This document shows, in pieces, positions 1 through 5,781 of a stretch of DNA of 5,781 nucleotides. The position numbers and the translations under genes are program-made. The notes below the pieces were generated by a model, which made no database searches, was not told where the DNA came from, and saw only the letters and a list, made by a program, of their open reading frames with translations. The DNA is from a virus (lineage: Duplodnaviria; Heunggongvirae; Uroviricota; Caudoviricetes). Where the stretch lies: positions 1-5,781 of the IMG/VR virus record IMGVR_UViG_2744054627_000015, one strand, 5' to 3'. The first letter of the stretch is position 1, and every line of letters begins with the position of its first letter.

Positions 1-1062
1 TTCTCCCAAACCAAGGTATGCGAGAAGACCTGCTACATCCTTTCCACTCAAATGAGTCAGCGTATTGTCCAGCGGTTGTTTACCTGCCAGCGCATTAAGC
101 ATTGTCGTGGCAAAGTTCGGATCATTCCCCAGTGCCGCCGCCAGTTCGTTCAGTGTATCCAGTGCCGCAGGTGCAGAACCCACCATTGCCGCAATCGCCG
201 ATTTCACAAATGCCGTGGTGGCAATCTGTGTATTGTTGACCGACTGTGCCGCAGTAGGTGCTGTTGGCGTTCCGGTGAGTGCCGGACTCGACAGCGGCGC
301 TTTCAGTGCCAGCGCATTATTAATAGTGGTACTGAATTTCGGGTCATTGTTAATGGCTGCGGCAATTTCTTTCAGTGTGTCCAGCGTGGCTGGCGCACCG
401 TTAATCAGAGCAGTAATAGCGGCCTGAACAAACTCTGTGGTCGCAATCCGAGTGGTGTTATTTCCTGCTGCAGGCGTCGGCGCTTTTGGTTCTCCGGTAA
501 ATGTCGGATTATGTTTCTGCGCATACTGGGTATGAGGATCTTGTGCGGCAATGTGGTTTCTCATCTGGTCATCCACATACAGCTTTAATTCCAGGACTTT
601 ATCATCCACGTATTTACGGGTTGCCAGCACTACAGCAGGGTCGATTTTCAGGGTGATATTGTCCGTACTGCTGGTAATCAGCACCATGCGCACGGTCTGG
701 GTGCGCCCGCTGCCTTCAGCCAGTTGCGGCTTATAGCTTTCCGGGCAGTTGCCCACGGCAATCAATGCCCCGGACTCATCAAACAGGCCCACTTCACGTA
801 TCCACCAACCGCCCTCGTTTTCAGGGATCACCTGTTCAGCAATAATCTGGCTGCTGTTCTGCGGGTCGATATAAAGCATATTCAGCGCAGCCCGGCGTTT
901 CTCATTTACCAGTGCCGTCTGCTTTGCGTCCGGCGTTGGCAATACTCCGCCGCCATCGCCCACCGCCATATGGGTAATTTTTAGCGGCACACCGAGCGCG
1001 GCGGCGCTGGCAAGTTTCGCCGCGCCAATATCCGTCAGCAGGGTATAAAATTTTGTGCTCAT
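1..1062 (-). CDS. H: Phage tail fibre protein (P2 gpH-like), N-terminal 354 codons; the gene continues past the window start
   Basis: Minus-strand ATG at 1062..1060 overlaps the gene I stop (ATGA). Translation MSTKFYTLLTDIGAAKLASAAALGVPLKITHMAVGDGGGVLPTPDAKQTALVNE... resembles the conserved N-terminal domain of P2-family tail fibres as recalled. The frame stays open to position 1. It is absent from the ORF track only because no stop codon falls inside the window. Confidence 0.88.
   Translation of the reverse strand, partial: MSTKFYTLLTDIGAAKLASAAALGVPLKITHMAVGDGGGVLPTPDAKQTALVNEKRRAALNMLYIDPQNSSQIIAEQVIPENEGGWWIREVGLFDESGALIAVGNCPESYKPQLAEGSGRTQTVRMVLITSSTDNITLKIDPAVVLATRKYVDDKVLELKLYVDDQMRNHIAAQDPHTQYAQKHNPTFTGEPKAPTPAAGNNTTRIATTEFVQAAITALINGAPATLDTLKEIAAAINNDPKFSTTINNALALKAPLSSPALTGTPTAPTAAQSVNNTQIATTAFVKSAIAAMVGSAPAALDTLNELAAALGNDPNFATTMLNALAGKQPLDNTLTHLSGKDVAGLLAYLGLGE
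70..462 (-). repeat. Diverged tandem duplication inside tail-fibre gene H (two units of about 170 nt, 220 nt apart)
   Basis: Protein units at residues 201-257 and 276-331 align (NNTTRIATTEFVQAAITALINGAPATLDTLKEIAAAINNDPKFSTTINNALALKAPL against NNTQIATTAFVKSAIAAMVGSAPAALDTLNELAAALGNDPNFATTMLNALAGKQPL). At DNA level, 308-400 and 88-180 share runs such as ccagcgcatta. Confidence 0.6.
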
Positions 1063-2564: not shown

Positions 2565-2910
2565 TCTCGGCTCCTGTTGATACGGAAAGGGAAACAGGCA
2601 CACCGTTATTACGCTGTCCGGTCAGTTCCACCACCATAGAACCGTCAAAATTGCTGTTGATGGTGATGGATTCCAGCGTCAGCCGAGGCTCCCAGCGACT
2701 CAGCGCCACATACACCGCCGACATAATCTGCAGGCGTAACGCCGGATTTTGTGGCTGGTCTATCAGCGCCGACAGCAGGGAACCATATTCACGACGGGCA
2801 ATGCGGCTACCCTGCGGCGTCAGCAGAATATCCCGCACCGACTGGCGCAGATGGTCAATATCAGTAATGGCTTTACCGCTGGTATTGTTCATCCCGATAT
2901 AAAGCGTCAT
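2551..2910 (-). CDS. W: Baseplate protein (P2 gpW-like), 119 aa
   Basis: Translation MTLYIGMNNTSGKAITDIDHLRQSVRDILLTPQGSRIARREYGSLLSALIDQPQNP... resembles P2 gpW as recalled. GGAGG (2921..2917) lies 6 nt upstream of the ATG at 2910. The ATG overlaps the V stop (ATGA). Confidence 0.9.
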   Translation of the reverse strand: MTLYIGMNNTSGKAITDIDHLRQSVRDILLTPQGSRIARREYGSLLSALIDQPQNPALRLQIMSAVYVALSRWEPRLTLESITINSNFDGSMVVELTGQRNNGVPVSLSVSTGAENGSD

Positions 2911-3485
2911 ACCGGGCCTCCGGTGGTGTCGCCACCTTTCTGGACGCCAGTATGCTGATGCGCATCAACCACGATCCCGTTAGAACTCATCGCACCGCCG
3001 CCCTGGGTAACGCCACCATTGATCACCACTTCGCTGTTAATACGTGCGCGGTCAGCCTCCAGTACAAACTCACTGGTTTTCAGGGTGATGTTGTCGACAG
3101 CCTCAATGACCATTGATTTGATGCCCCTGACATACCAGCGCCCGGTGGCGGGTTCGTATTCAAACCAGCCACCGTCAGGATATTCTGTCACGCAGGCGTC
3201 CGCCGACGTCGACGGCGGCGCGAACTGATTCGAATAGACAGCGGGCAACGCAAAGGCGGTTTCCAGATTGCCACCCAGACTCAGCAGCACCACCTGCTCA
3301 CCTTCCGATGGTTTCCACCATGTGCGGGCATTACCCGCACGCAGCGTCAGCCAGCTGATCCAGTTGGTTTCAAGGTCGCCTGTTTTCACCCGGCAAAGCC
3401 AGTTCTCCCGGTCCACTTCGGTGACTACACCAGTGCGAATCAGGTTGGTGATAAGGCGCATGATTTCGGTTAAATGTGCGTTCAT
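2907..3485 (-). CDS. V: Baseplate spike / tail protein (P2 gpV-like), 192 aa from the ATG at 3485
   Basis: Translation MNAHLTEIMRLITNLIRTGVVTEVD...KGGDTTGGPV aligns with the recalled gpV N-terminus (MNTLANIQELARALRNMIRTG...) and the C-terminal GG-rich tail. The ORF-track start at 3542 adds 19 residues with no counterpart in gpV, so the internal ATG is preferred. None of the candidate starts has a convincing Shine-Dalgarno. Confidence 0.82.
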   Translation of the reverse strand: MNAHLTEIMRLITNLIRTGVVTEVDRENWLCRVKTGDLETNWISWLTLRAGNARTWWKPSEGEQVVLLSLGGNLETAFALPAVYSNQFAPPSTSADACVTEYPDGGWFEYEPATGRWYVRGIKSMVIEAVDNITLKTSEFVLEADRARINSEVVINGGVTQGGGAMSSNGIVVDAHQHTGVQKGGDTTGGPV

Positions 3486-3530
3486 GAGAAAAACTAACCG
3501 CCATTGCAAACGCAATCGAGTAGATAGGAA

Positions 3531-3548
3531 TGTTTGATTCATGGCACA
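3531..3548 (-). promoter_or_regulatory. Candidate Ogr/Delta-type late-activator box (TGT-N12-ACA) upstream of V
   Basis: Minus strand reads TGTgccatgaatcaaACA, centred about 54 nt upstream of the V ATG. P2-family late promoters carry a TGT-N12-ACA dyad at about -55 from the transcription start, and V is the first gene of a late operon in P2. It is a single occurrence that could arise by chance, and the spacing to the ATG is tight. Confidence 0.3.
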
Positions 3549-3576
3549 ATACGTTGCTTACTTTTAAGGATATAAA

Positions 3577-4021
3577 ATGAAAGACAATTTAAATCTTCTT
3601 ATAAAAAATTAATAAGAAAGGCATTTCCTGAATTTAGCAATAAGGTAACATGGACTTTACTCACTGCAGGGATCGGTATTCTTGCACTACCTGCACCCAC
3701 ATATTTATTATTCGTAAACCTTATAATTGATTTTTACAACAAAACAACTAATTCAGAAATAAGCTTCTTAAGATTGATAGCATTACACCAAGTAGTGGGG
3801 TTGCTTTAACTTTAATTCTATCCGGGCTAGTCTTTCACCTATTAATAAAAGTCCCCCATATATACCAAGAAATTCTAAAAGAGAATAACCAAAAAGAAAT
3901 ACAGGAAAGAAAAAGAGTAGCAGACGTTAAACTTTATGAGGCATTTATTGATATTCTACCAACAACCTCGTTATCAATTGAATTCTTAAAAGACCATAAT
4001 TTTGAAAACTCCCTATCATGA
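3577..4021 (+). pseudogene. Disrupted ORF for a predicted two-transmembrane protein (about 148 aa if two single-base homopolymer deletions are repaired)
   Basis: ATG at 3577 with AAGGA (3566-3570, 6-nt spacer) opens an 11-codon ORF in frame 1. Frame 0 is then stop-free across 3576..3806 and frame 2 across 3752..4018, with no usable start codon in either. Adding one A to the A6 run (3603-3608) and one G to the G4 run (3797-3800) yields a continuous protein with two hydrophobic helices and a charged C-terminal tail. Confidence 0.4.
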
Positions 4022-4057
4022 TAATAATACAAAAGATATTAGTAATCTTGAATACGG

Positions 4058-4336
4058 GTGGGTCATGCAGATCAACATTTTCATGACAATGAAATTGAAG
4101 ATAAAGCCACTCATCTTTACAGTGAAATAATAAAGTTTAATTATTTTCTCGCTTATAAATCGCACAATATCAATAACTATATGTTTAGCATGCTTACTGA
4201 CAGAGATCGAGCTATGGTGATGGAATTACTACCTCAAACAAAGGAAAATATAAAAATAGCCAATGAGTGGAGTTCTACAATTCATCAGCTTTACTGTGAC
4301 TTTATCTCCACATGTAGGAATAACTTAGCCATATAA
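4058..4336 (+). CDS. Hypothetical protein (92 aa from GTG at 4058, or 51 aa from ATG at 4181); island cargo of unknown function
   Basis: ORF-track frame, same frame as the upstream disrupted ORF and separated from it by a cluster of stops at 4019-4051. It is Asn/Ile/Lys-rich, as expected for AT-rich DNA. No good RBS precedes either start. It ends at TAA 4334-4336, 14 nt from the convergent S stop. Confidence 0.4.
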   Translation: MGHADQHFHDNEIEDKATHLYSEIIKFNYFLAYKSHNINNYMFSMLTDRDRAMVMELLPQTKENIKIANEWSSTIHQLYCDFISTCRNNLAI

Positions 4337-4350
4337 ATCATATGCTGTAG

Positions 4351-4596
4351 TTAATTAAGACAAGTAGCGAAAAAAATATCACGAGTTATCATTTCCGCTT
4401 CGTCGTTAACACCCAAAAGGCGACGCTCTGCGTAACGGACCTCCGGCCCTTTGCGACTGACGCGATCGCGCAGGCCGTAATGGTGAACACGGGCAATGCG
4501 CTGCACCTTACCTTCAAACTGCACGCTGGCAGAATCGGCGCTGGCGGCAGTTTTCAGATATTTTGTGGTGCGTAGCTTTGCAAACATCTGACGTTT
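4351..4596 (-). pseudogene. S: 3' fragment of the tail-completion / virion-morphogenesis gene (P2 gpS-like), truncated at its 5' side by the IS
   Basis: Translation ...KRQMFAKLRTTKYLKTAASADSASVQFEGKVQRIARVHHYGLRDRVSRKGPEVRYAERRLLG... fits my recollection of the gpS / Mu gpG family (MFxKLRTxxYLK ... IARVHH-GLRDR). An in-frame stop at 4621-4623 lies inside the IS end. Only about 80 of the expected 150 codons are present. Confidence 0.55.
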
Positions 4597-4649
4597 TGTA
4601 ATGACCCACTGAAATCCTGCTCAGGTCATAATGAGTGGAGATCACAGAC

Positions 4650-5003
4650 ATGAGCATCACGATGGACGAAGAAATCAAACGTTGGACGGCCAAGCGCAAG
4701 TCCGCCTTGGTCATGGAAATCATTCAGGGCAAGACCACCGTCGCCGAAGCGGCTCGAGCCTTTGATTTGCCGCCCTCCGAGATTGAAGAATGGGTAGATG
4801 ACGCCAAACGGGGCATGGAAAACGCCTTACGGGCCAAGCCACTGGATATTCGCGAGCAGTACGAGAAGCAGCTCAAGGAACTCCAGGAAGCTTATGGCGA
4901 GGCCATGCTGGAGTTACGCGCCAGAAAAAGCTGGCCTCCCTGCTGGGCGAGGACGACAGATAGTCGCCGATGTTCAGCAGGGATTACGCGCAGAAGGTAT
5001 TGA
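4650..5003 (+). CDS. IS3-family transposase OrfA (HTH DNA-binding protein), with an aberrant C-terminal extension in this copy
   Basis: ATG at 4650 preceded by GGAG (4637-4640, 9-nt spacer). Translation MSITMDEEIKRWTAKRKSALVMEIIQGKTTVAEAARAFDLPPSEIEEWVDD...EAMLELRARK parallels IS2 OrfA (...[23 protein letters not shown]). The canonical OrfA tail KKLASLLGEDDR* is in the -1 frame after the A-run at 4925-4929. The ORF-track GTG start at 4635 was not used. Confidence 0.8.
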   Translation: MSITMDEEIKRWTAKRKSALVMEIIQGKTTVAEAARAFDLPPSEIEEWVDDAKRGMENALRAKPLDIREQYEKQLKELQEAYGEAMLELRARKSWPPCWARTTDSRRCSAGITRRRY

Positions 5004-5781
5004 TGTCTCCGTCAGCAAGCTCTGCCGCTGGTTTGGCCTGCCGCGTCGTAGTTGGTACTACCGCAGCGTCAAGGCCGCGCCCAAGCTTCAGGAGCATCTG
5101 GTCACCCCGATCAAAAACATGATTGAGGAGAACCCATCGTTCGGTTACCGGACGGTTGCAGCCCTGTTGGGGTTCAACAAGAACACGGTACAGCGCATCT
5201 TCCAGCTCAAGGGCTGGCAAGTTCGCAAGCGTCCGGTTGGGTTTCGCCCCCGGATCCAGGCCCTGCCTTCGGTGGCCTCAGCGCCCAACCAACGCTGGGC
5301 GACGGACCTATGCCGGATCTGGGCTGGTCGCGATGGCTGGTGTTCCTTGGCGCTGGTGATTGATTGCCATACCCGTGAACTACTGGGATGGCATCTCTCG
5401 CGCAGTGGTAAATCGAAAACGGCCGAGGCAGCGCTGGAGCAAGCCTTAATTGCTCGCTTCGGCAGCTTGGGACGAGTTGCATCGCCGTTTTTGTTACGTA
5501 GCGACAATGGGTTGGTGTTTACCAGCCGCAACTACACAGCACTGGTGAAGAGCTATGGGTTGCAGCAGGAGTTCATCACGCCGTACACGCCGGAACAAAA
5601 CGGCATGGTCGAGCGGGTGATCAGAACGCTCAAGGAGCAGTGTGCCCATCGGCAGAGGTTCGAGACCTTGCAGCATGCCAGTCGGGTGATTGGCGACTGG
5701 ATCCAGTTTTACAACCAGAAGCGTCCTCACCAGGCGCTAAAGATGAAAACACCGGCGCAGGCCTATGCCGAAGCCGCTTAG
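4927..5781 (+). CDS. IS3-family transposase OrfB (DDE catalytic domain); here in the +1 frame relative to OrfA
   Basis: DDE(K) signature: D at 5305-5307 (WATDL), D at 5503-5505 (RSDNG), E at 5611-5613 followed by K seven residues later (ERVIRTLK). No ATG near the 5' end, as is typical when OrfB is made only as an OrfAB fusion. The frame is open from 4798, but the part upstream of the A-run overlaps OrfA and is not considered coding. Stop TAG at 5779-5781. Confidence 0.82.
   Translation, partial: KAGLPAGRGRQIVADVQQGLRAEGIDVSVSKLCRWFGLPRRSWYYRSVKAAPKLQEHLVTPIKNMIEENPSFGYRTVAALLGFNKNTVQRIFQLKGWQVRKRPVGFRPRIQALPSVASAPNQRWATDLCRIWAGRDGWCSLALVIDCHTRELLGWHLSRSGKSKTAEAALEQALIARFGSLGRVASPFLLRSDNGLVFTSRNYTALVKSYGLQQEFITPYTPEQNGMVERVIRTLKEQCAHRQRFETLQHASRVIGDWIQFYNQKRPHQALKMKTPAQAYAEAA

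What the first reader, a model, noticed from the sequence alone, without database searches (positions are those of the whole stretch)
3560..4345. AT-rich moron island between tail-completion gene S and baseplate gene V
GC falls from about 55-58% in the tail genes to about 27% across roughly 0.8 kb. In P2 as I recall it, S and V are adjacent or nearly so, so this is inserted cargo. Its coding signal is on the plus strand, opposite to the surrounding late operon, which suggests independent expression. The last codons of S (4354-4400) are also AT-rich, so the insertion may have replaced the native S C-terminus. Accessory loci in P2-like prophages often carry host-benefiting or anti-phage functions. 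Nothing here resembles a protein I recognise, so the content may be undescribed.
Basis: partly seen in the sequence, partly recalled or inferred. Interest (0 to 1): 0.65.

Follow-up and report, generated by a model that had tools for sequence, protein, structure and literature searches.

The report
Unknown membrane gene in P2 hotspot
The AT-rich stretch is a swappable cargo cassette in a known variable slot of a P2-like prophage; it carries one uncharacterised 253-residue membrane protein gene, which looks like an anti-phage defence gene and appears broken here, probably only through sequencing errors.

Summary
The AT-rich island is real: 31% GC against about 56% in the flanks. It lies between P2-type genes V and S, on the opposite strand.

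It holds one gene, not two. Twelve complete E. coli genomes carry the same DNA as an intact 253-aa hypothetical protein. The window differs from the best of them by homopolymer indels only (8 indels and 1 substitution over 5.8 kb), which looks like sequencing error.

The S-V junction is the classic P2 "orf30" moron slot. Among 78 scorable near-identical backbones, 53 were empty (about 70 bp). The other 25 held at least 13 different AT-rich cargos, including PARIS, AbiU/AIPR and an OLD-like ATPase-Toprim.

The protein has no Pfam, NCBIfam, PADLOC, PDB or GenBank-phage match. It has a conserved two-helix membrane module and a confidently modelled C-terminal helical domain. That domain recurs in hundreds of protein clusters, fused to other TM segments, TIR, HNH or Schlafen/AlbA_2 domains.

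Best reading, inferred and not shown: a single-protein, prophage-borne anti-phage (abortive-infection or exclusion) factor. An IS3-family element also interrupts gene S.

Verdict: a known kind of locus, an undescribed cargo family, and moderate interest.

The parts
2907..3485 (-). Baseplate spike gene V (192 aa), the left anchor of the slot. The mechanical ORF runs on to 3542, but the true start is 3485.
   Evidence: Pfam Phage_base_V 1e-17 and Apex 6.4e-8. The start agrees with annotated homologues.
3486..3577 (.). V-X intergenic region (GC 0.36). It arrives with the cassette and differs in sequence from the same region at empty sites. One homopolymer deletion lies at 3488.
   Evidence: Alignment of occupied and empty junctions; GC; indel list.
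3531..3548 (-). TGT-N12-ACA dyad of the late promoter P_V (binding site of the Ogr-type activator). Its centre is about 55 nt upstream of the V start, as in P2.
   Evidence: Read directly from the sequence. The same dyad is present at empty and Cartapus junctions. P2 annotates an 'activator binding site; activation of pV promoter' 42-69 nt upstream of V.
3521..3550 (+). Putative promoter of the island gene: -35-like TAGATA (3521-3526), an 18-nt spacer containing TG (3542-3543), and -10-like CACAAT (3545-3550). It overlaps the P_V dyad. This is inferred only.
   Evidence: GTAGATA and CATGGCACAAT are conserved upstream of X alleles that share 46-99% protein identity, and are absent from empty sites. 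The simple promoter scan did not report it, because it matches only 8 of 12 positions.
3578..4336 (+). Island gene X. It is 253 codons when intact (WP_058101143.1 / P0001 family). Here it is split by homopolymer indels at 3602 (A7 to A6), 3763 (CC to C), 4011 (CC to CCC) and 4059 (G4 to G3). RBS AAGGA lies at 3567-3571.
   Evidence: 99.5% identity to 12 complete E. coli genomes that hold one intact CDS. The family has 31 clusters at 45-99% identity, all about 253 aa.
3578..3875 (+). N-terminal membrane module of X (residues 1-100): an amphipathic helix with the near-invariant FPEFSNKVTW motif, then two hydrophobic helices (about 27-47 and 73-95). Predicted topology is N-in/C-in.
   Evidence: Alignment invariants; hydropathy; K+R counts of 6, 2 and 6 in the N-tail, loop and post-TM2 segment. 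It is the most conserved part, with mean top-residue frequency 0.77.
3888..4333 (+). C-terminal cytoplasmic helical domain of X (residues ~105-253; motifs HDFG and WGxADQHFH). It is a portable domain that other proteins carry fused to different N-terminal partners.
   Evidence: AF2 pLDDT above 90 across 105-253. The profile search found 928 clusters at E<=1e-3, many matching only this domain. Fusions seen: TIR_2, CAP12/Pycsar-type TIR, SLFN_AlbA_2 and HNH. No Pfam or PDB match.
4351..4400 (-). AT-rich, cassette-linked 3' tail of gene S (about the last 16 codons). One homopolymer deletion at 4369 changes the last five residues (RYLS to ATCLN).
   Evidence: Nucleotide homology to empty-site relatives decays here. 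The S C-termini co-vary with cargo type. GC is 0.275; indel.
4351..4596 (-). 3' fragment of tail-completion / virion-morphogenesis gene S (78 codons of 147). This is the right anchor of the slot, truncated by the IS.
   Evidence: Pfam Phage_tail_S 6.6e-17, profile positions 71-142 of 148. Homology to HH194M ends at window 4596.
4593..5781 (+). IS3-family insertion sequence (orfA and orfB) inserted into S. It runs off the window end and carries one homopolymer deletion at 4924.
   Evidence: Pfam HTH_Tnp_1, rve and rve_3. 1189 of 1190 bases match an annotated IS3-family copy. No complete E. coli genome has this S::IS junction.

Best explanation
The island is a mobile, AT-rich, single-gene accessory cassette. 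It sits in the S-V ('orf30') variable slot of a P2-like prophage of the 186/Fels-2 type, at the boundary between the late O operon and the V operon. Cassettes are exchanged by recombination whose joints lie in the 3' end of S and at the V start, so each cassette brings its own S tail and its own P_V region.

The cassette encodes one 253-residue inner-membrane protein, X. X has a conserved N-terminal amphipathic helix plus a two-helix membrane hairpin. The second helix continues into a cytoplasmic helical-bundle domain.

The most likely function (inferred) is a prophage-expressed, single-protein anti-phage factor of the sensor-effector type. In this model the C-terminal domain detects an infection cue and switches the membrane hairpin, probably by oligomerisation, into a state that damages or blocks the inner membrane. 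That would abort or exclude a superinfecting phage.

The gene is probably transcribed from its own weak extended -10 promoter, which overlaps the activator dyad of P_V. It could therefore be on in the lysogen and shut off or overrun during late lytic transcription.

In this window the reading frame is interrupted four times. This is most likely a sequencing artefact and not decay. Separately, the prophage is genuinely disabled by an IS3-family insertion in S.
For: Shown:
- There is one intact 253-aa CDS in 12 E. coli genomes at 98.8-99.5% DNA identity.
- The family is conserved full-length at 45-99% identity across Enterobacterales.
- In all 21 loci examined the gene sits in the order W,V(-) | X(+) | S,R(-). 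X identity is uncoupled from backbone identity: V 95-96% with X 46-48%, against V 71% with X 74%.
- Empty 68-bp junctions occur in the closest phages, and S tails vary with the cargo.
- Slot survey: of 78 scorable loci, 53 were empty and 25 occupied by at least 13 cargo types at 31-35% GC. These include PARIS (AriA 2e-38, AriB 4e-22), AbiU/AIPR (1.7e-24 / 1.6e-25) and a fused AriAB/OLD-like ATPase-Toprim (1e-25).
- The C-domain is confidently folded and is shared with proteins whose N-termini are TIR (four cases), Schlafen/AlbA_2 or HNH, at whole-library E of 1e-11 to 2e-16, and with many unrelated 1-TM and 2-TM N-termini.
- Distant relatives sit beside RES, HigB, MNT-type, ParE and Fic toxin genes and a type I R-M system.
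- The N-module is more conserved than the C-domain (0.77 vs 0.64), and charge distribution predicts N-in/C-in topology.
- Promoter-like elements are conserved upstream of X.
- Artefact signature: 8 homopolymer indels against 1 substitution. These fall also in essential gene I and in the IS copy.

Inferred: the defence function, the sensor-to-effector logic, the membrane-damage mechanism and the promoter.
Against: - No experiment or annotation links this family to phage resistance.
- TIR, HNH and SLFN fusions are a small minority (6 of the 150 best representatives). Most relatives are simply membrane-anchored, so the TM part could be only an anchor and the C-domain the active part.
- A one- or two-helix segment is not proven to be toxic.
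- The neighbourhoods of distant relatives are anecdotal (five loci).
- The AF2 confidence of the TM region is low (pLDDT 50-60).
- No sigma-70 promoter passed the scan.
- 9 of the 13 cargo types in the slot are also of unknown function, so guilt by location is partial.
Confidence: 0.5

Rival explanations
1. X is a superinfection-exclusion protein of the classic kind. It would be a constitutively made inner-membrane protein that blocks genome entry or receptor function of incoming phages, as T4 Imm or HK97 gp15 do, without killing the cell. The C-domain would be the interaction surface and not a switch.
For: X is a prophage moron on the opposite strand with a predicted inner-membrane location. 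102 of the 150 best relatives are simply TM-anchored versions of the domain. There is precedent for membrane morons inside late operons (HK97 gp15, cited in PMC10884400). P2 Orf30 and another cargo in the same slot are also multi-TM proteins.
Against: The bulk of the protein is predicted to be cytoplasmic. The same domain is fused to cytoplasmic toxic enzymes (TIR, HNH, Schlafen/AlbA_2) in other lineages, which fits a regulator of a toxic activity better than a passive entry block. There is no sequence similarity to any known exclusion protein in Pfam or PHROGs.
Confidence: 0.2
2. X serves the phage or host in a way unrelated to phage defence, for example as a lysis-timing, envelope-stress, colonisation or signalling membrane protein. 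Its position is only a permissive inter-operon site.
For: The function is unknown. The slot lies between two late operons, where insertions are tolerated. Other P2 hotspots carry non-defence cargo such as CDT toxin and tail-fibre genes (PMC9122126; bioRxiv 10.1101/2024.10.15.618418).
Against: Every cargo in this slot that could be identified is a defence system. The fusion partners of the C-domain are typical conflict-system effectors. Alleles are shuffled among near-identical backbones, a pattern reported for defence genes in P2 and P4 (PMC13586616).
Confidence: 0.12
3. In this particular genome the island gene is a true pseudogene. The prophage is defective because of the IS in S, and X, I and the S tail have decayed by real frameshift mutations.
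For: There are four frameshifts in X, one in I and one in the S tail. The IS3-family insertion in S is a real structural change that inactivates an essential tail gene. A partial 153-aa version of the protein is deposited from another E. coli (P0011).
Against: All 8 indels are single-base homopolymer length changes, against one substitution in 5.8 kb. One of them lies in the IS copy, which is otherwise identical to copies elsewhere. Real decay should give substitutions as well, and indels outside homopolymers. The NAR 2026 survey reports that defence pseudogenes are rare in P2 and P4 (PMC13586616).
Confidence: 0.15
4. The AT-rich stretch is non-coding spacer or regulatory DNA, and the ORF is spurious.
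For: No ORF of 60 aa or more spans the region in the window itself, apart from a 92-aa fragment.
Against: An intact 253-codon frame is kept in dozens of divergent copies down to 45% identity, with invariant motifs. The domain is confidently folded and has 928 related clusters. There is no Rfam hit.
Confidence: 0.01

Closest known systems
P2 Orf30 locus, the third classic 'moron' region of P2-like phages between S and V
   Same: Same position, same opposite-strand orientation and similar size (261 aa vs 253 aa). Both are AT-rich, non-essential accessory genes placed between the O-operon end and the P_V activator site, and both encode membrane proteins (PMC6823313).
   Different: There is no detectable homology (hhalign probability 0.1%). 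Orf30 also has no known function.
P2-like prophage defence hotspots (old/tin next to cos; Z/fun in the tail genes)
   Same: It is a small locus between two conserved phage genes with rapid cargo turnover in near-identical backbones. Known defence systems (PARIS, AbiU, OLD-like) occur in this slot too (PMC9122126, PMC9519451, PMC13586616).
   Different: This is a different position. The cos and Z/fun hotspots are the validated ones. The papers read here name the S-V slot only as a moron site or implicitly as 'within the tail genes / downstream of GpL'. X itself has not been tested.
Membrane effectors of signalling-based abortive-infection systems (CBASS Cap15-type and Pycsar PycTM effectors, type III CRISPR Cam1), named from general knowledge
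   Same: The architecture is 'one or two TM helices plus a cytoplasmic regulatory domain'. The same regulatory domain is alternatively fused to TIR domains, including the CAP12/Pycsar-type TIR family PF10137.
   Different: No cyclase or other signal-generating partner gene is present in the slot; X is a solo gene. The C-domain is an all-helical bundle with no similarity to cNMP-binding, SAVED, CARF or STING domains. X is therefore not a member of those systems.
Single-protein sensor-effector defences carried by prophages (e.g. CapRel-type fused toxin-antitoxin; AbiU/AIPR in the same slot), named from general knowledge
   Same: It is a solo gene on a temperate phage, with a variable sensor-like part and a conserved effector-like part, in a hotspot shared with Abi genes.
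   Different: There is no sequence or fold relationship. The effector here would be a membrane hairpin and not an enzyme. The trigger is unknown.
Superinfection-exclusion membrane morons (HK97 gp15, T4 Imm)
   Same: Both are small inner-membrane proteins encoded by morons in or near late operons and expressed from the prophage (PMC10884400 reference list).
   Different: There is no homology. X has a large, conserved cytoplasmic domain that other lineages fuse to TIR, HNH or Schlafen domains.

Membership tests
Cargo of the P2-family S-V ('orf30') variable slot | Lies between homologues of tail-completion gene S and baseplate gene V | tested here: met
   Pfam Phage_tail_S and Phage_base_V flank it in the window. 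The same order W,V | X | S,R was found in all 21 loci.
Cargo of the P2-family S-V ('orf30') variable slot | Presence/absence and cargo polymorphism in otherwise near-identical phage backbones | tested here: met
   Empty 68-bp junctions in 500465-1, 4LV2017 and Fels-2. Of 78 IMG/VR loci with V at least 94% identical, 53 were empty and 25 held at least 13 cargo types.
Cargo of the P2-family S-V ('orf30') variable slot | Atypical (AT-rich) composition and orientation opposite to the late operons | tested here: met
   GC 0.31 against 0.56. The gene is on the plus strand and the late genes on the minus strand. Other cargos have 0.31-0.35 GC and are nearly all on the opposite strand.
P2 Orf30 protein family | Sequence homology to P2 Orf30 (NP_046770.1) | tested here: not met
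   hhalign of the family profile against Orf30 gave probability 0.1% and E 0.42. tblastn of X against 50,697 phage records gave no match.
Known or candidate anti-phage defence systems (PADLOC-DB v2.0) | Match to a defence-protein HMM | tested here: not met
   No family at E<=1 for X. TIR-fused relatives match only through their TIR part.
Single-protein sensor-effector abortive-infection proteins (functional class) | A regulatory domain combined with interchangeable toxic effector domains across homologues | tested here: met
   The C-domain is fused to TIR_2, CAP12/Pycsar-type TIR (three cases), SLFN_AlbA_2, HNH and diverse 1-2 TM segments.
Single-protein sensor-effector abortive-infection proteins (functional class) | Confers phage resistance, with cell death or growth arrest on infection | not testable with these tools
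   This needs cloning and phage challenge. No literature hit was found for the protein accessions.
CBASS / Pycsar / Thoeris-type signalling systems (TM effector member) | Adjacent signal-generating enzyme (CD-NTase, cyclase or TIR) and a known nucleotide-binding sensor domain | tested here: not met
   X is the only gene in the slot in 19 of 21 loci. L011/L012 add only a 220-aa multi-TM ORF. No Pfam or PADLOC sensor domain was found.
Pfam-defined TM effector or holin families (e.g. SLATT, holins) | Match to the family HMM | tested here: not met
   No Pfam family at E<=1. PHROGs gave only noise at E>=0.09.
IS3 family insertion sequence (the element interrupting S) | HTH orfA plus rve (DDE) orfB with an A6G slippery site, and identity to annotated IS3-family copies | tested here: met
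   Pfam HTH_Tnp_1, rve and rve_3. 1189 of 1190 bases are identical to an annotated 'IS3 family transposase' locus. The single difference is at the A6 run.

The most novel reading that the evidence does not exclude
The ~145-residue C-terminal helical domain of X would be a previously undescribed, widespread sensor/switch module of single-protein anti-phage systems. It has at least 928 clusters at 50% identity and is found from Enterobacterales to Pseudoalteromonas, Methylophaga and Persephonella. It would be plugged onto interchangeable effectors: TM hairpins, TIR, HNH and Schlafen/AlbA_2. X would be its P2-prophage-borne membrane-effector version. In addition, the S-V junction would be a third bona fide defence hotspot of P2-like phages, whose cassettes carry their own P_V promoter and S tail.
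Probability: 0.35. Interest if true: 0.65.

Novelty: new member of a known kind. Interest (0 to 1): 0.42.

Why it matters
P2-like prophages are among the commonest mobile elements of E. coli, Klebsiella and Salmonella. Two of their variable slots have already yielded many new defence systems.

This analysis shows that the third classic moron slot (S-V, the 'orf30' site) behaves the same way. It is empty in about two thirds of near-identical backbones and otherwise filled with at least 13 AT-rich cargos. Three of these are known defence systems, and the rest, including this one, are unknown.

The cargo here defines a compact, testable candidate. It is a solo 253-aa membrane protein whose C-terminal domain is absent from Pfam and the PDB and is re-used with TIR, HNH and Schlafen domains elsewhere. 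If validated, it would add a new sensor domain and a new single-gene system to the defence catalogue. It would also give an anchor-gene strategy (S and V) for mining more systems.

The practical lesson for the scan is that the apparent 'two small ORFs' are a homopolymer-error artefact. The window's assembly should not be trusted for frame calls.

Tried and rejected
- DNA similarity of the island to 50,697 GenBank phage records: blastn 'distant' and tblastn both found no match. The family is seen only in prophages and IMG/VR contigs.
- Pfam, NCBIfam and PADLOC on X found nothing at E<=1. PHROGs gave only noise.
- An HD-phosphohydrolase reading of the HDFG / QHFHD motifs was considered and dropped. 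The histidines are not conserved in the wider family and no HD-domain structure appears among the fold hits.
- Profile search of PDB sequences with the C-domain alignment gave a best E of 0.022 to a BAR-domain protein, which is not credible.
- The second word-indexed homologue search, using the C-domain profile, returned only 17 hits and no new architectures.
- Homology of X to P2 Orf30 was rejected. Homology between the 268-aa cargo of L036 and Orf30 is marginal (E 0.084) and was left open.
- A Pycsar/CBASS effector reading was prompted by the Pycsar-type TIR fusions and by an ORF next to the Methylophaga homologue that looked cyclase-like by eye. That ORF has no Pfam match and the P2 slot has no partner gene, so the reading was rejected.
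- The sigma-70 and terminator scan of 3400-4450 found fewer promoter-like sites than the shuffles and no terminator.
- Rfam found no RNA family in the window.
- A search for the S::IS junction in 5,426 complete E. coli genomes found none, so the source strain could not be compared directly.
- A literature search for the protein accessions gave no papers.
Full report
**1. The observation**

A 200-bp sliding profile shows GC at 0.53-0.61 over the tail genes. It falls to 0.285-0.35 between about 3500 and 4400 and returns to 0.55-0.63 afterwards. The lowest 800-bp window in the whole sequence starts at 3561.

On the minus strand, I (Tail_P2_I), J (Baseplate_J), W (GPW_gp25) and V (Phage_base_V plus Apex) lie to the left, and a Phage_tail_S fragment lies to the right.

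**2. What is in the island**

In the window itself the region has only short ORFs. The longest is 92 aa, at 4058-4336 on the plus strand. However, the 808 bases 3543-4350 match 12 of 5,426 complete E. coli genomes at 98.8-99.5% identity, and there the DNA is 810 bases long. [quoted passage not shown]

Alignment shows that the window differs from strain HH194M only by single-base length changes in homopolymer runs. Over the whole 4,596 bases shared with HH194M there are seven such indels and one substitution. The indels lie at:
- 1594, in gene I, which is thereby frameshifted;
- 3488;
- 3602, 3763, 4011 and 4059, all in the island gene;
- 4369, in the S tail.

The IS element to the right differs from an annotated copy elsewhere by one base in 1,190, again an A6 to A5 change. 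Eight homopolymer indels against one substitution is the signature of an error-prone read technology and not of mutational decay. I therefore treat the 'two island proteins' as fragments of one gene, called X here, and the frameshifts as probably artefactual. I put this at about 85%; it is not provable without the reads.

**3. The site**

The prophage is closest to the 186/Fels-2-like Peduoviridae, with V 95-96% identical to Escherichia phage 500465-1 and Klebsiella phage 4LV2017. In those phages and in Fels-2, S and V are separated by only 68 bp. Phage Cartapus has a different 176-aa gene there on the opposite strand. P2 itself has the non-essential Orf30 (261 aa) there, also on the opposite strand. 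Orf30 is flanked by a putative terminator of the O operon and by the annotated activator-binding site of the V promoter.

So this is the junction between two late operons, and it is the third of the 'three regions known to carry morons' in P2-like phages (PMC6823313).

In the window the TGT-N12-ACA dyad typical of P2 late promoters is at 3531-3548. Its centre is about 55 nt upstream of the V start at 3485, the same geometry as in P2. The ORF-list start of V at 3542 is an over-extension.

Comparison with empty sites shows that nucleotide homology stops at the V start codon on one side and about 16 codons before the S stop on the other. The S C-terminus keeps its pattern (E-x-x-TRD-h-h-x-x-L), but its sequence varies with the cargo carried. 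Cassettes are therefore swapped by recombination inside the ends of S and V, and each brings its own S tail and P_V region.

**4. Is the slot a hotspot, and for what?**

I anchored on V and fetched 80 IMG/VR loci whose V is at least 94% identical. Of the 78 scorable loci, 53 have the empty junction of about 70 bp. The other 25 carry inserts of 556-2,250 bp, all at 31-35% GC and nearly all coding on the strand opposite to S and V. They fall into at least 13 unrelated cargo types.

Three of these types are recognisable defence systems:
- PARIS: AriA 2e-38 and AriB 4e-22, with DUF4435 5e-27;
- an AbiU/AIPR protein: 1.7e-24 and 1.6e-25;
- a fused AriAB/OLD-like ATPase-Toprim: 1e-25.

The remaining types (146, 189, 268, 304, 314, 393, 481 and 503 aa, plus X) have no annotation.

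The literature read here validates the cos-proximal and Z/fun hotspots (PMC9122126; PMC9519451). It mentions defence systems 'within the tail genes / downstream of GpL' only in general terms (PMC13586616). A systematic hotspot survey lists a different third hotspot (bioRxiv 10.1101/2024.10.15.618418). The S-V slot as a defence-type hotspot is thus consistent with the published picture, but these papers do not spell it out.

**5. The protein family**

A word-indexed search of 5.8 billion proteins found 31 clusters. All are from Enterobacterales, 45-99% identical, about 253 aa, and named 'hypothetical'. The alignment shows:
- a nearly invariant N-terminal motif, FPEFSNKVTW;
- two hydrophobic helices;
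- a charged linker;
- a C-terminal domain with invariant or near-invariant H148, W162, G163, the QHFH motif, T222 and A229-N230.

In every locus recovered by three independent routes (E. coli genomes, exact-protein look-ups, IMG/VR and GTDB scans), members with at least 45% identity sit in the same W,V | X | S,R arrangement. This covers 21 loci from Escherichia, Klebsiella, Erwinia, Pseudescherichia, Buttiauxella and uncultured viral contigs.

X identity does not follow backbone identity. Backbones with V 95-96% and R 97-98% identical to the window carry X alleles only 46-48% identical, whereas a Klebsiella backbone with V at 71% carries X at 74%. Alleles are therefore shuffled within a fixed slot.

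No GenBank phage record encodes a homologue.

**6. Structure and domain logic**

AlphaFold2 with the family alignment gives mean pLDDT 79. The TM region scores only 50-60, but residues 105-253 score above 90. The model shows a bundle of long helices with a small beta element, and the second TM helix runs continuously (residues 74-127) into the first helix of the bundle. The distribution of K and R (6 in the N-tail, 2 in the loop, 6 after TM2) predicts N-in/C-in topology, so the C-domain is cytoplasmic. No fold search gave a specific match.

An exhaustive profile search of 1.84 billion cluster representatives was informative. It returned 928 hits at E<=1e-3 and 187 at E<=1e-10. The best 150 representatives classify as follows:

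| Architecture | Count |
|---|---|
| Full 2-TM architecture (many with the FPEFSNKVTW-like motif) | 48 |
| C-domain behind unrelated single or double TM segments | 54 |
| Essentially the C-domain alone | 22 |
| Short soluble N-extension (35-99 aa) plus C-domain | 11 |
| Fragment / N-terminal part only | 8 |
| Large soluble N-terminal domain (100 aa or more) plus C-domain | 7 |

Pfam identifies the soluble N-terminal domains as TIR_2, CAP12/Pycsar-type TIR (three proteins) and Schlafen/AlbA_2. A shorter protein carries HNH. The C-domain matches of these proteins have whole-library E-values from 1e-11 to 2e-16.

The C-domain itself has no Pfam family and no PDB sequence relative.

The few neighbourhoods I could read for distant relatives contain a RES toxin, HigB/HTH and MNT-type pairs, ParE, Fic, and a type I R-M system with an IS.

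Within the P2 family the membrane module is more conserved than the C-domain (0.77 vs 0.64).

**7. Mechanism**

Shown:
- X is a conserved, solo, AT-rich cargo gene in a hypervariable slot that also carries known defence systems.
- Its cytoplasmic domain is a portable module combined with toxic effector domains in other lineages.

Inferred:
- X is a single-protein anti-phage factor in which the C-domain senses an infection cue and controls the membrane hairpin, for example through oligomerisation that damages or blocks the inner membrane.
- Upstream of X, the elements GTAGATA and CATGGCACAAT are conserved across alleles and absent from empty sites. On the plus strand they read as a -35-like hexamer, an 18-nt spacer and a TG-extended -10 (CACAAT, 3545-3550). 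This would place a transcription start about 20 nt before the ATG, upstream of the AAGGA ribosome-binding site.
- This putative promoter overlaps the P_V activator dyad, so activator binding in late infection could switch X off.

None of this is demonstrated. The simple promoter scan did not report the site.

**8. Rivals**

- A non-lethal superinfection-exclusion role is the main alternative. It is favoured by the predominance of plain TM-anchored relatives. It is disfavoured by the cytoplasmic location of the domain and its fusions to enzymes.
- A non-defence accessory role cannot be excluded.
- A true pseudogene in this strain is possible, because the prophage is already disabled by an IS3-family insertion at about 4593-4597 in S. 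The indel spectrum argues against it.
- Non-coding DNA is excluded by the conservation data.

**9. Comparison and novelty**

The locus type is already known: a moron or hotspot cassette in a P2-like prophage at the orf30 position. The cargo is not homologous to Orf30 and is not a member of any PADLOC, Pfam or NCBIfam family. It lacks the partner gene and the sensor domains that define CBASS, Pycsar or Thoeris effectors. It works like, but is not a member of, the 'TM helices plus regulatory domain' effector class.

I file it as a new member of a known kind. It is an uncharacterised candidate defence family in a known variable slot, and it has a C-terminal domain that appears to be undescribed.

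Interest is moderate. A specialist would expect unknown AT-rich genes in P2 hotspots. The domain-fusion pattern and the slot survey nevertheless make a concrete, cheap experimental lead. The copy in this window is probably mis-sequenced and sits in a defective prophage.

Noticed in passing
window 1594, 3488, 3602, 3763, 4011, 4059, 4369, 4924: There are eight single-base homopolymer length differences and only one substitution (window 654) relative to near-identical references. They frameshift gene I (the ORFs 1457-1663 and 1059-1583 are two pieces of one gene), gene X and the S tail, and they alter the A6 slippery run of the IS. This is a strong sign of an error-prone assembly, so frame calls anywhere in this window are unreliable.
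   Followed up: yes
window 4593-5781: An IS3-family element (HTH orfA, rve orfB) is inserted into tail-completion gene S after about codon 67, so the prophage cannot make tails. None of 5,426 complete E. coli genomes has this junction. The IS itself occurs in 635 genomes and on plasmids.
   Followed up: partly
L059:3750-6001, L060:553-2803, L076:4041-6001, L051:4091-6001 (IMG/VR loci): The same S-V slot in backbones with V 96% identical carries PARIS (AriA plus AriB/DUF4435), a fused AriAB/OLD-like ATPase-Toprim, and an AbiU/AIPR protein. This makes S-V a defence-type hotspot in 186/Fels-2-like prophages, and the papers read here do not say so explicitly.
   Followed up: yes
L048, L110, L096, L062, L095, L114, L045 (S-V slot cargos): Seven further AT-rich solo cargos (393, 503, 304, 314, 189, 481 and 146 aa) have no credible PADLOC or Pfam match. 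The 503-aa one has a P-loop motif (GRKGTGKT), and the 314- and 146-aa ones are membrane proteins. These are candidate unknown accessory or defence genes.
   Followed up: partly
L036:2062-2868 (also L038, L047, L091, L097): An 854-bp cassette encodes a 268-aa multi-TM protein whose 3' end overlaps the S stop. It gives a weak colinear BLASTP match to P2 Orf30 (E 0.084), so it may be a distant Orf30 relative.
   Followed up: partly
L015:4962-5723 (Methylophaga MAG): This is the only full-length X relative found outside a P2 context (24% identity, same FPEFSNKVTW motif, 253 aa). It lies directly after a RES-domain toxin gene and before two unannotated ORFs, in what may be a small defence or TA island.
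   Followed up: partly
L011/L012:3263-3925: In the most divergent P2-slot allele (45% identity) the slot holds a second gene upstream of X on the same strand. It is a 220-aa multi-TM protein with no significant Pfam family. The X gene there is called with a 72-residue N-terminal extension, which is probably a mis-called start.
   Followed up: no
P0174 (276 aa): One relative appears to contain two tandem copies of the C-terminal domain (residues 4-114 and 126-263) and no TM or enzyme domain.
   Followed up: no
window 3486-3542: The mechanical ORF for V starts at 3542 (211 aa), but all homologues start at 3485 (192 aa). The extra 19 codons cover the P_V promoter region and are not coding.
   Followed up: yes
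L034 (P2 NC_001895) 9439-10224: The R18C paper describes P2 ORF30 as '261-bp-long'. The P2 record shows it is 786 bp and 261 codons. This is a small error in the literature that makes Orf30 look much smaller than the cargos that replace it.
   Followed up: yes
window 1-1058: The left end of the window aligns with the 5' two-thirds of the tail-fibre gene H of HH194M (L001 2457-3518, minus strand). It runs off the window and was not analysed further. In HH194M an invertible tail-fibre segment with a recombinase lies just beyond it.
   Followed up: no
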